Assembly: GCF_024223415.1 (NCBI RefSeq)
Contig: NZ_CP100500.1
Direction: 5' to 3' (one strand)
From: Escherichia coli
GTDB lineage: Bacteria > Pseudomonadota > Gammaproteobacteria > Enterobacterales > Enterobacteriaceae
Length of the DNA stretch: 64,000 bases
Shown: in pieces, positions 9,001-12,000 of the stretch
Layout of the letters: each line of letters begins with the position of its first letter
Position numbering within the stretch: position 1 is the first letter of the stretch
Made by a program: the position numbers

Positions 9001-12000
9001 CAGTGCCGATCTTTTTTTAGAGACGACAGACTTGCCCTGCTGGCGACATGGCGAATGGTTACATCTCTGTTCAATTGCGTTGTCTGCCGAGCCTTCGCGT
9101 ACCAGCGCATTTACTGCGATGACGGCGATCCGGCATGCCGGAGGTTTTGTCAGCTTCGATCCCAATATTCGTGAAGATCTATGGCAAGACGAGCATTTGC
9201 TCCGCTTGTGTTTGCGGCAGGCGCTACAACTGGCGGATGTCGTCAAGCTCTCGGAAGAAGAATGGCGACTTATCAGTGGAAAAACACAGAACGATCGGGA
9301 TATATGCGCCCTGGCAAAAGAGTATGAGATCGCCATGCTGTTGGTGACTAAAGGTGCAGAAGGGGTGGTGGTCTGTTATCGAGGACAAGTTCACCATTTT
9401 GCTGGAATGTCTGTGAATTGTGTTGATAGCACGGGGGCGGGAGATGCGTTCGTTGCCGGGTTACTCACAGGTCTGTCCTCTACGGGATTATCTACAGATG
9501 AGAGAGAAATGCGACGAATTATCGATCTCGCTCAACGTTGCGGAGCGCTTGCAGTAACAGCGAAAGGGGCAATGACAGCGCTGCCATGTCGACAAGAACT
9601 GGAATAGTGAGAAGTAAACGGCGAAGTCGCTCTTATCTCTAAATAGGACGTGAATTTTTTAACGACAGGCAGGTAATTATGGCACTGAATATTCCATTCA
9701 GAAATGCGTACTATCGTTTTGCATCCAGTTACTCATTTCTCTTTTTTATTTCCTGGTCGCTGTGGTGGTCGTTATACGCTATTTGGCTGAAAGGACATCT
9801 AGGGTTGACAGGGACGGAATTAGGTACACTTTATTCGGTCAACCAGTTTACCAGCATTCTATTTATGATGTTCTACGGCATCGTTCAGGATAAACTCGGT
9901 CTGAAGAAACCGCTCATCTGGTGTATGAGTTTCATCCTGGTCTTGACCGGACCGTTTATGATTTACGTTTATGAACCGTTACTGCAAAGCAATTTTTCTG
10001 TAGGTCTAATTCTGGGGGCGCTCTTTTTTGGCCTGGGGTATCTGGCGGGATGCGGTTTGCTTGACAGCTTCACCGAAAAAATGGCGCGAAATTTTCATTT
10101 CGAATATGGAACAGCGCGCGCCTGGGGATCTTTTGGCTATGCTATTGGCGCGTTCTTTGCCGGCATATTTTTTAGTATCAGTCCCCATATCAACTTCTGG
10201 TTGGTCTCGCTATTTGGCGCTGTATTTATGATGATCAACATGTGTTTTAAAGATAAGGATCACCAGTGCGTAGCGGCGGATGCGGGAGGGGTAAAAAAAG
10301 AGGATTTTATCGCAGTTTTCAAGGATCGAAACTTCTGGGTTTTCGTCATATTTATTGTTGGGACGTGGTCTTTCTATAACATTTTTGATCAACAACTTTT
10401 TCCTGTTTTTTATGCAGGTTTATTCGAATCACACGATGTAGGAACGCGCCTGTATGGTTATCTCAACTCATTCCAGGTGGTACTCGAAGCGCTGTGCATG
10501 GCGATTATTCCTTTCTTTGTGAATCGGATAGGGCCAAAAAATGCATTACTTATCGGTGTTGTGATTATGGCGTTGCGTATCCTTTCCTGCGCGCTGTTCG
10601 TTAACCCCTGGATTATTTCATTAGTGAAGCTGTTACATGCCATTGAGGTTCCACTTTGTGTCATATCCGTCTTCAAATACAGCGTGGCAAACTTTGATAA
10701 GCGCCTGTCGTCGACGATCTTTCTGATTGGTTTTCAAATTGCCAGTTCGCTTGGGATTGTGCTGCTTTCAACGCCGACTGGGATACTCTTTGACCACGCA
10801 GGCTACCAGACAGTTTTCTTCGCAATTTCGGGTATTGTCTGCCTGATGTTGCTATTTGGCATTTTCTTCCTGAGTAAAAAACGCGAGCAAATAGTTATGG
10901 AAACGCCTGTACCTTCAGCAATATAGACGTAAACTTTTTCCGGTCGTTGTCGATATCTCCATATCCTTCAATCGGAAAATAATAATACTAAAATGCTTAG
11001 CCCTGCTAATAATCACCTATGTTCTGGTACAGTCGCTCAAATGTACTCCGGATACACGGTTCGCTGATTTCCAGGACATTGTCGTCATTCAGCGACCTGT
11101 CCCGTGTATCACGGGCCTGCAAATTCATCAAGGAATGCATTGCGGAGTGAAGTATCGAGTCACGCCGTATTTCGCTATCAGGATTCTGTGTGATGGTTAC
11201 ATCGCCCGGCCCAGGGCTGTTTAGTCATCAGCGCTTTCTGACAGTGCTGAGATTTCAACCTGTTGCAGTAAAAATGAGTAGATATAGGGCAAGTGTGCTG
11301 CCAAACCCATCTTTTATGGGGTGAAGGTAGATTTCGTTTGAAGGGTATCTGGTGTCCCCTGCAGGAATCGAACCTGCAATTAGCCCTTAGGAGGGGCTCG
11401 TTATATCCATTTAACTAAGAGGACAATGCGGCATGAGTATACCCGCTAATGGACTGCGGGGTAAGTACGCTGCCGCTCGATTGCTTAAACCCTCGCCATT
11501 TATGCCGGGTTTTTATCATTTTTCTTAATGTTTTCCGCACGTTCTGCTTTTTGGCGTGCTTCTGCTTTGCGCTTGTTGCTCATGTCGTTACGGATCTGTG
11601 CATGACTCATTAACGCGAAGATAAAGGTGCCGCCGCAGATGTTCCCCGCTAAAGTAGGTAGTGCGAAGGGCCAGATGAAATCGCTCCAGTGCAGCGTACC
11701 GTTAAACACCAGATAGAGGATTTCTACAGAACCGACAACGATGTGAGTGGTGTCACCCAGGGCAATAAGCCAGGTCATCAATATAATCACCACAATCTTT
11801 GCCGCACCCGCTGCAGGAAACATCCATACCATAGTGGCGATCAGCCAGCCGGAAATGATCGCGTTGGCAAACATCTCGCTGGGGGTGTTCTTCATCACAT
11901 CCATGCCGATTTTGACAAATGCATCGCGAGTTTCTTCATTGAAGATTGGCATATATTCAAATGCCCACGCCGCAATACCTGTCCCGAGAATATTACCCAG

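What the first reader, a model, noticed from the sequence alone, without database searches (positions are those of the whole stretch)
10927..11349. ORF-free 423-bp junction between cscB and the 3' end of argW; no integrase or prophage at this tRNA
tRNA 3' ends are classic integration sites, and K-12 as I recall carries the CPS-53 prophage at argW. Here the island has no integrase, no obvious direct repeat of the argW 3' end, and no ORF of 60 aa or more in the junction. That suggests an old, degraded or non-phage-mediated acquisition. This is the best place for an overlooked small RNA or att remnant.
Basis: inference. Interest (0 to 1): 0.3.

Follow-up and report, generated by a model that had tools for sequence, protein, structure and literature searches.

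The report
Decayed genomic-island remnant beside argW
The 423 bases between the sucrose transporter gene cscB and the tRNA gene argW are not empty: they hold the tail of the sucrose gene cassette plus broken, neutrally drifting fragments of two genes from an ancient mobile island, which makes this an ordinary genomic fossil and not a hidden gene.

Summary
cscB stops at 10926 and argW (tRNA-Arg CCU, minus strand) ends at 11350. No ORF reaches 60 aa, there is no integrase, and no second copy of the argW 3' end exists.

The gap is a mosaic:
- 10927-10994 is the 3' flank of the ~5-kb csc cassette. It is shared with Citrobacter amalonaticus and carries a conserved hairpin.
- 11012-11283 is a broken DUF4942 gene (aa 38-65 and ~85-143; Pfam 27.2 bits against a cut-off of 25).
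- 11281-11317 is a fragment of DUF957, the gene that precedes DUF4942 in CP4-type islands.
- 11312-11335 resembles the integrase-side arm of a living argW island.

All relics are collinear and run in the same direction as argW. The best reading is an ancient CP4-type island at argW, since gutted by deletions, with csc joined inside DUF4942.

The junction occurs in 2631 of about 2645 csc+ complete E. coli genomes and, further decayed, in a divergent Escherichia. It drifts at the neutral rate (4.0% against 4.6% at cscB four-fold sites) and carries stops, frameshifts and indels. No sRNA, promoter or terminator signal exceeds chance. It now serves only as the chromosomal flank of the argW attachment site. 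Interest is low.

The parts
10927..10994 (+). 3' flank of the ~5-kb csc cassette (the cassette is window ~6000-10994)
   Evidence: Homology with two Citrobacter amalonaticus genomes (80-82.5% nt) runs from 6000 to 10994 and stops there. In that species the cassette lies between yjfF and an MCP fragment/fbp, with no tRNA nearby.
10936..10979 (+). Conserved imperfect hairpin just after the cscB stop (TTTTCCGGTYG ... CAAYCGGAAAA, inner GATAT/ATATC stem). Probably a 3'-end element of the cscKB transcript. It is weakened in this window by two substitutions.
   Evidence: The stems are invariant across E. coli, a divergent Escherichia and C. amalonaticus. Fold z-scores are -3.5 to -4.5 in those lineages but -11.1 kcal/mol and z -1.1 here. 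No U-tract follows, so it is not a canonical intrinsic terminator.
11012..11224 (-). DUF4942 pseudogene fragment, approximately aa 85-143 of a ~281-aa protein. It holds the 44-aa ORF 11006-11140 that is annotated 'hypothetical' in SCU-316.
   Evidence: tblastn against full-length DUF4942 proteins gives E 1e-15 to 3e-15 with 51-53% identity. Pfam PF13708 scores 27.2 bits against a cut-off of 25, covering profile positions 7-60 of 190. Paralogous full-length genes are ~75% identical at the nucleotide level. Variable sites by codon position are 6/10/8, and other lineages have a stop or a frameshift.
11015..11016 (.). Site of an 18-bp deletion specific to this lineage. Other csc+ strains have ATCCAAACACCTCATTCA here, which makes their junction 441 bp.
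   Evidence: Alignments. Only 14 of 2631 genomes match the window's junction at 95% or better.
11200..11283 (-). DUF4942 fragment aa 38-65, in a different reading frame. Roughly aa 66-84 are missing between this piece and the previous one.
   Evidence: DNA local alignment to gene nucleotides 111-195 scores 58 (L003) and 43 (L004) against a null of 17.7 +/- 2.3, with 0 of 300 shuffles as good. tblastn gives QQVEISALSESADD*TALGRAM against QLAEISAMTESIGGKTALDWAM.
11281..11317 (-). DUF957 gene fragment (aa ~34-45 of 65). DUF957 is the gene immediately upstream of DUF4942 in intact islands.
   Evidence: DNA alignment to the NU14 DUF957 gene scores 33 against a null of 17.4 +/- 2.1, with 0 of 300 shuffles as good. 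The homologous junction of Escherichia SCPM-O-B-8794 encodes DSAALLPCI, 9 of 9 identical to DUF957 aa 37-45.
11312..11335 (-). 24-nt block resembling the integrase-proximal (attL) arm of an extant argW-specific island with a P4-type integrase. Suggestive only.
   Evidence: GAAATCTACCTTCACCCCATAAAA aligns with GAAATCTACCAT-ACCCCACAAAA at the same offset (14 nt) from the tRNA end. The score is 31 against a null of 15.5 +/- 2.1, with 0 of 500 shuffles as good. The match is not significant for the O157 or SCPM-8794 versions. That arm occurs in 276 genomes.
11350..11424 (-). argW, tRNA-Arg(CCU). Its 3' terminal 15-22 nt form the att core used by several elements.
   Evidence: Partial copies serve as attR in K-12 (15 nt, pawZ), O157:H7 (22 nt with one deletion), 23CRST011 (19 nt) and SCPM-8794 (16 nt). 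Homology to K-12 breaks exactly at 11350.

Best explanation
The 423-bp gap is non-functional mosaic DNA left by two old events.

First, a CP4-type integrative island (P4-like integrase ... Ag43, DUF932, antirestriction, RadC/JAB, DUF987, CbeA/CbtA, DUF5983, DUF957, DUF4942) once sat at the 3' end of argW. Deletions then removed almost all of it. What remains next to an intact argW is a few tens of bases of the integrase-side arm, about 37 nt of DUF957 and two pieces of DUF4942.

Second, the ~5-kb csc cassette (cscR, cscA, cscK, cscB plus a 68-nt 3' flank with its hairpin) became joined inside DUF4942 at about codon 150. The same rearrangement removed the rest of DUF4942, the island's distal att copy, dsdC and the 5' part of dsdX. 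This explains why there is neither an integrase nor a direct repeat.

Shown directly: the relics, their order and orientation, the cassette boundaries, the age, the near-universality among csc+ strains and the neutral drift. Inferred: the order of events and the deletion mechanism.

Today the segment only provides (a) the 3' hairpin of the cscKB transcript and (b) the chromosomal flank of the argW attachment site, into which phages and islands keep inserting.
For: DUF4942 relic:
- tblastn gives E about 1e-15.
- Pfam PF13708 scores above its gathering cut-off.
- Full-length paralogs are ~75% identical at the nucleotide level.
- A second piece, aa 38-65, scores 58 against a null of 17.7 +/- 2.3.

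DUF957 relic: it lies upstream, on the same strand and collinear with the DUF4942 pieces.

Intact islands: DUF957 then DUF4942 are the last genes of the Ag43/CbtA module.

Living example at this very site: in strain 23CRST011 the order is argW, P4-type integrase, a ~57-kb island, a 19-bp attR, then the same junction and cscB.

Boundaries:
- K-12 homology breaks exactly at the tRNA 3' end and inside dsdX.
- The csc cassette runs from 6000 to 10994, by comparison with C. amalonaticus.

Distribution and age:
- The junction is in 2631 genomes and cscB in 2645, one copy each.
- A ~90%-identical Escherichia lineage has a homologous, shorter, ~70%-identical junction.

Neutrality: divergence is 4.0% in the junction, 4.6% at cscB four-fold sites and 1.3% across all of cscB. 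There is no third-position bias, and different lineages carry a stop, a frameshift and indels.
Against: - No integrase and no att repeat survive, so island membership rests on gene relics only.
- The arm-like block is short (24 nt) and not significant in two other lineages.
- The 190 bp at the left edge of the cassette (5810-5999) has no identified origin and holds no DUF4942 remainder, so csc did not simply insert into DUF4942.
- The mechanism that moved the csc cassette is unknown. No IS, integrase or repeats flank it in either species.
- The primary papers on this locus (Jahreis 2002; Moritz and Welch 2006) could not be read.
Confidence: 0.78

Rival explanations
1. The DUF957/DUF4942 fragments were never part of an island resident at argW in Escherichia. 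They arrived as passenger DNA on the same imported fragment as csc, for example from a donor in which csc had landed in a CP4-type island. The whole block then replaced dsdC and the 5' part of dsdX by recombination at the argW hotspot.
For: There is no attR and no integrase. The relic always accompanies csc in E. coli. The left flank 5810-5999 is also foreign DNA of unknown origin. The literature speaks only of a 'recombination hotspot' (PMC4366372; PMC11251922).
Against: - The csc cassette of C. amalonaticus ends at 10994 and lacks the relic.
- The relics are oriented and ordered exactly as expected for an island integrated at argW: they run in the same direction as the tRNA, with DUF957 before DUF4942.
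- The break with K-12 is exactly at the tRNA end.
- The first ~35 nt resemble the arm of an argW-specific island.
Confidence: 0.15
2. The junction encodes an unannotated functional product. This could be a small RNA (for example a 3'UTR-derived RNA of cscB, or an RNA antisense to the relic) or the 44-79 aa DUF4942-fragment peptide that NCBI annotates in many strains.
For: - The plus strand of the window folds better than its shuffles (z -3.4, 0 of 100), and the O157 version gives z -2.4.
- The hairpin after cscB is strongly conserved.
- An ORF is annotated here in many genomes.
Against: - No Rfam family matches, and promoter and terminator counts are at chance.
- BH100N folds at z -1.2 and the minus strand at z -0.9, and the predicted structures differ between lineages.
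- Substitution is at the neutral rate with no codon-position bias. KO11FL has an in-frame stop, 2020N21-246 a frameshift and the window an 18-bp deletion, and annotated ORF lengths vary from 44 to 79 aa.
- The divergent Escherichia has lost about 40% of the segment.
Confidence: 0.05
3. The similarities to DUF4942 and DUF957 are chance, and the gap is plain intergenic DNA.
For: The pieces are short, and no single intact motif of known function is present.
Against: tblastn gives E about 1e-15, the Pfam score is above its curated cut-off, three collinear pieces lie on one strand, 0 of 300 shuffles match the DNA scores, and NCBI's own annotation agrees independently.
Confidence: 0.01

Closest known systems
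CP4-type cryptic islands of E. coli (CP4-6, CP4-44 and CP4-57 in K-12; Ag43/CbtA-CbeA islands at tRNA genes in other strains)
   Same: The relics match the last two genes (DUF957, DUF4942) of the conserved distal module. They keep the same order and the same orientation relative to the tRNA, and they sit at a tRNA 3' end.
   Different: About 300 nt of a 20-60 kb element survive. There is no integrase, no att repeat, no toxin-antitoxin pair, and nothing is intact.
Extant argW island with a P4-type integrase (strain 23CRST011, ~57 kb; its arm is found in 276 of 5426 complete E. coli genomes)
   Same: Same tRNA target and the same gene-module family. A 24-nt block at the same offset from the tRNA end resembles the junction.
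   Different: It is a separate, later insertion. In 23CRST011 it sits between argW and the complete junction, bounded by its own 19-bp attR. Its own distal end lacks CbtA, DUF957 and DUF4942.
CPS-53 / KplE1 prophage of K-12 and P22-like prophages at argW (IntS type)
   Same: They use the same att core in the argW 3' end. In csc+ strains such as O157:H7 they insert exactly at the right edge of this junction.
   Different: They are unrelated in sequence to the junction. The K-12 attL and attR flanks show no similarity to it. Neither IntS nor TorI is present here.
The argW-dsdCXA variable region / csc substitution described by Jahreis et al. 2002 and Moritz and Welch 2006 (as cited in PMC11251922, PMC3032704 and PMC4366372)
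   Same: The same locus: cscRAKB replaces dsdC and part of dsdX next to argW.
   Different: The accessible literature calls argW a recombination hotspot and does not mention island gene relics in the cscB-argW gap. The two primary papers were not available to check.

Membership tests
Intact tRNA-associated integrative island (CP4 / P4-integrase type) | Tyrosine integrase gene next to the tRNA | tested here: not met
   No ORF above 44 aa lies in the gap. The annotation of the identical strain has no integrase between emrY and fadL. For contrast, 23CRST011 has one with Arm-DNA-bind_3, Phage_int_M and Phage_integrase domains.
Intact tRNA-associated integrative island (CP4 / P4-integrase type) | Direct repeat of the tRNA 3' end marking the far boundary (attR) | tested here: not met
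   The tRNA itself is the only match at up to 3 mismatches. The best partial matches do not exceed shuffles.
Intact tRNA-associated integrative island (CP4 / P4-integrase type) | Foreign DNA begins exactly at the 3' end of a tRNA gene | tested here: met
   Homology to K-12 ends at 11350, the last base of argW.
Intact tRNA-associated integrative island (CP4 / P4-integrase type) | Conserved distal gene module ending DUF957 then DUF4942, running in the same direction as the tRNA | tested here: met
   Met as relics only: DUF957 aa 34-45, DUF4942 aa 38-65 and aa ~85-143, collinear on the argW strand.
Intact tRNA-associated integrative island (CP4 / P4-integrase type) | Integrase-proximal arm sequence next to the core | tested here: inconclusive
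   A 24-nt match at the same offset to the arm of the 23CRST011 island scores 31 against 15.5 +/- 2.1. It is not significant for the O157 and SCPM-8794 versions.
Pfam DUF4942 (PF13708) | Score at or above the curated gathering cut-off | tested here: met
   27.2 bits (window) and 27.7 bits (O157) against a cut-off of 25. A full-length control scores 231.6 bits.
Pfam DUF4942 (PF13708) | Complete domain in an intact reading frame | tested here: not met
   Only profile positions 7-60 of 190 are covered. The pieces are in two frames with internal deletions, and other lineages have a stop or a frameshift.
DUF957 family | Match to the family profile | not testable with these tools
   The Pfam copy gave no hit even for a full-length gene annotated DUF957. 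Membership therefore rests on direct similarity to such genes.
Known small RNA or cis-regulatory RNA families (Rfam 15) | Covariance-model match | tested here: not met
   Only the tRNA scored at or above its gathering score in 5000-13000, with E up to 1 allowed.
Intrinsic (Rho-independent) terminator | G+C-rich hairpin followed by a U-tract | tested here: not met
   The scan found none inside the gap. The conserved hairpin after cscB has its T-run upstream and an A-run downstream.

The most novel reading that the evidence does not exclude
The conserved hairpin at the end of the csc cassette, together with the better-than-random fold of the plus strand, could mark a functional 3'UTR-derived RNA of cscB. 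Alternatively it could be a protein-binding or recombination site that defines the end of a mobile csc cassette. In that case part of the 'junk' junction would be a regulatory or mobility element.
Probability: 0.05. Interest if true: 0.4.

Novelty: new member of a known kind. Interest (0 to 1): 0.12.

Why it matters
It gives a concrete account of why the widespread csc sucrose island of E. coli sits at a tRNA gene yet has no integrase or att repeat. The integrative element that first occupied argW has decayed to about 300 nt, and csc is joined to its wreck. This refines the vague 'recombination hotspot' description in the literature and dates the arrangement to before E. coli diversified. It also defines the csc cassette ends (6000-10994) and shows that the flank still serves as an attachment site for many phages and islands. 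It does not reveal a new gene, RNA or mechanism.

Tried and rejected
- att remnants: exact and mismatch searches for the argW 3' end, plus a best-partial-match scan of both junctions and the whole island, found nothing above chance.
- Similarity of the junction to K-12's attL and attR flanks or to CPS-53: none.
- A DUF4942 remainder at the left edge of csc, which would have indicated a simple insertion: none. The 190 bp at 5810-5999 is single-copy and of unknown origin.
- Small RNA: the Rfam search, promoter and terminator scans and whole-junction folds on both strands and in three lineages gave nothing consistent. The antisense strand of an intact DUF4942 gene shows no special fold either.
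- Small protein: the codon-position test and the lineage translations argue against one.
- Phage carriage of csc (specialised transduction): the four 'phage' records are prophage calls that include host flanks on both sides. The four 'plasmid' hits are 0.37-4.9 Mb and labelled non-mobilizable, so they are most likely chromosome-derived records; their context was not examined.
- A Pfam test of the DUF957 relic was not possible because the control also fails.
- The primary papers (PMC1698345, PMC135337) are not held.

Full report
**The observation.** The window is an E. coli chromosome segment identical over this region to strain SCU-316. The gene order is:
- emrY, 2599-4137 (+)
- dsdA, 4246-5574 (-)
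- a 72-codon C-terminal stub of dsdX, 5592-5810 (-)
- cscR, 6041-7036 (+)
- cscA, 7044-8486 (-)
- cscK, 8693-9607 (+)
- cscB, 9679-10926 (+)
- the 423-bp gap
- argW, tRNA-Arg(CCU), 11350-11424 (-)
- yfdC and mlaA

The 3' end of argW faces the gap. No ORF in the gap exceeds 44 aa, no integrase is annotated or visible, and K-12 does carry CPS-53/intS at argW. The argW 3' end has no second copy in the 64 kb at up to three mismatches. A best-partial-match scan of the two junctions and of the whole island gives nothing above shuffled sequence.

**What the gap is made of.** Homology to K-12 stops exactly at 11350, the last base of argW, and at 5809 inside dsdX. Comparison with other genomes splits the 423 bp into pieces.

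1. *10927-10994 belongs to the csc cassette.*
   - Two Citrobacter amalonaticus genomes share 80-82.5% identity from 6000 to 10994 and nothing beyond.
   - In that species the cassette lies between the ytfR/ytfT/yjfF transporter genes and an MCP fragment, fbp and mpl, with no tRNA nearby.
   - This flank holds an imperfect hairpin at 10936-10979. Its stems are invariant from E. coli to Citrobacter, although the end of cscB itself varies.
   - The hairpin folds well in the other lineages (z -3.5 to -4.5) and is weakened here by two substitutions (z -1.1).
   - No U-tract follows it, so it is not a textbook terminator.

2. *11012-11224 on the minus strand is a fragment of a DUF4942 gene.*
   - tblastn against full-length proteins gives E about 1e-15.
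   - Pfam PF13708 scores 27.2 bits against a curated cut-off of 25.
   - Full-length paralogs elsewhere in E. coli genomes are ~75% identical at the DNA level.
   - NCBI's pipeline labels ORFs of about 50-79 aa here 'DUF4942 domain-containing protein' in many strains.

3. *11200-11283, in another reading frame, is DUF4942 aa 38-65.* The DNA score is 58 against 17.7 +/- 2.3, with 0 of 300 shuffles as good. About 19 codons are missing between the two DUF4942 pieces.

4. *11281-11317 is a fragment of DUF957 (aa ~34-45).* The score is 33 against 17.4 +/- 2.1, with 0 of 300 shuffles as good. The homologous junction of a divergent Escherichia encodes DSAALLPCI, nine of nine identical to DUF957.

5. 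*11312-11335 resembles the integrase-side arm of a living argW island.* The match sits at the same 14-nt offset from the tRNA end. The score is 31 against 15.5 +/- 2.1, with 0 of 500 shuffles as good. The O157 and divergent-Escherichia versions do not reach significance, so I treat this as suggestive only.

**Why this points to an island.** In intact elements the gene order is Ag43, DUF932, antirestriction, JAB/RadC, DUF987, CbeA, CbtA, DUF5983, DUF957, DUF4942. DUF4942 is the last gene. This is the module known from the K-12 cryptic elements CP4-6, CP4-44 and CP4-57 (my own knowledge).

Strain 23CRST011 shows the living arrangement at this very site:
- argW is followed by a tyrosine integrase with the P4-type domain set.
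- About 57 kb of island follows, all on the argW strand, ending with the YeeU antitoxin gene.
- A 19-bp attR comes next, and then the complete junction and cscB.

The relics in the junction have the order (DUF957 before DUF4942) and the orientation (same direction as argW) expected of the distal end of such an island. The best reading is that an older island of this type sat at argW and was gutted by at least three deletions. The csc cassette is joined inside DUF4942 near codon 150. The same rearrangement removed the rest of DUF4942, the distal att copy, dsdC and most of dsdX, which explains the missing integrase and repeat. The order of these events is inference.

**Age and distribution.**
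- The junction occurs once per genome in 2631 of 5426 complete E. coli genomes, and cscB occurs in 2645. It is therefore essentially universal among csc+ strains.
- In 1470 genomes it abuts argW directly, as it does here. In the others something has inserted at the att core. Examples are a phage remnant with intS in O157:H7, a P22-like prophage and the 57-kb island.
- A record titled E. coli SCPM-O-B-8794 is ~90% identical to the window in dsdA and csc, and the species-level collection treats it as a separate species. Its junction is homologous, shorter (257 bp) and only ~70% identical, and is followed by a 16-nt attR.
- The arrangement therefore predates the diversification of E. coli, or was exchanged long ago.

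**Function.** I find no evidence for any function beyond the cscB hairpin.
- Among six E. coli lineages the junction differs at 4.0% of sites. The figure is 4.6% at four-fold degenerate sites of cscB and 1.3% for cscB overall.
- Within the DUF4942 frame, variable sites fall 6/10/8 by codon position. KO11FL has an in-frame stop, 2020N21-246 a frameshift and the window a private 18-bp deletion.
- Rfam finds only the tRNA, and promoter-like and terminator-like sites are at chance.
- The plus strand of the window folds better than its shuffles (z -3.4). O157 gives -2.4 and BH100N -1.2, the minus strand gives -0.9, and the predicted structures differ between lineages.

**Comparison with what is known.** The csc substitution next to argW is well known (PMC11251922, PMC3032704 and PMC4366372). 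Those papers call argW a recombination hotspot and do not mention island relics. The two primary papers could not be read. The remnant fails the tests for an intact island (no integrase, no att repeat). It meets the tests for location at a tRNA end and for the distal gene module. It is a decayed member of a known kind.

**Verdict.** This is a real but ordinary genomic fossil.

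Noticed in passing
window 10936-10979: The hairpin just after the cscB stop is more conserved between E. coli and Citrobacter amalonaticus than the end of cscB itself. Its T-run lies upstream and its A-run downstream, so it is not a canonical terminator. In Escherichia sp. MOD1-EC7003 the csc homology breaks inside its loop.
   Followed up: partly
window 6000-10994; L013, L017: The csc cassette has sharp ends shared with C. amalonaticus, where it sits between yjfF and an MCP fragment/fbp. No tRNA gene was found within ~8 kb on either side. The flanks were not screened for insertion sequences or integrases; only seven flanking ORFs of at least 300 aa were classified and none was a mobility gene. 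How the cassette moves is unexplained.
   Followed up: partly
window 5810-5999: About 190 bp between the dsdX stub and the csc cassette has no identified origin. It is single-copy, found only in csc+ genomes, and differs from most strains by a 12-bp indel. It contains no DUF4942 remainder.
   Followed up: partly
window 11015/11016: An 18-bp deletion relative to nearly all other csc+ E. coli. Only about 14 of 2631 genomes match the window's version at 95% or better.
   Followed up: yes
L010 (ON470589.1) 1-4300 and 44842-45921: Four GenBank 'phage genomes' that carry csc are prophage calls. They include host DNA on both sides (cscA, cscK and cscB plus the junction on one side; argW and yfdC on the other). 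This probably explains the 'csc in coliphage genomes' remark in PMC11251922.
   Followed up: yes
L007 + L009 (NZ_AP045770.1, 1513530-1564434): A ~57-kb CP4-type island at argW with a P4-type integrase. It carries Ag43, a second autotransporter, many IS fragments and restriction and TerB genes. Its distal end stops at the YeeU antitoxin, with no CbtA toxin gene, 80 bp before a 19-bp attR. Its integrase-side arm is present in 276 of 5426 genomes.
   Followed up: partly
L011 (Escherichia sp. MOD1-EC7003) 159-1145: In this lineage the left side of csc abuts a gene for a 328-aa protein that looks, by eye only, like a lipid A acyltransferase (LpxP/LpxL-like), instead of dsdX and dsdA. The context is therefore different or rearranged, and the contig ends 96 bp after cscB.
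   Followed up: no
window 10927-11349, plus strand: The whole-junction RNA fold is more stable than its shuffles in the window (z -3.4) and in O157 (z -2.4), but not in BH100N (z -1.2) or on the minus strand. No common structure emerged.
   Followed up: partly
window ~13640-14940 (L001 10714-12014): Between mlaA and fadL, the identical strain SCU-316 is annotated with frameshifted yfdF-like pseudogenes. The window has a 426-aa ORF on the minus strand at 13663-14943.
   Followed up: no
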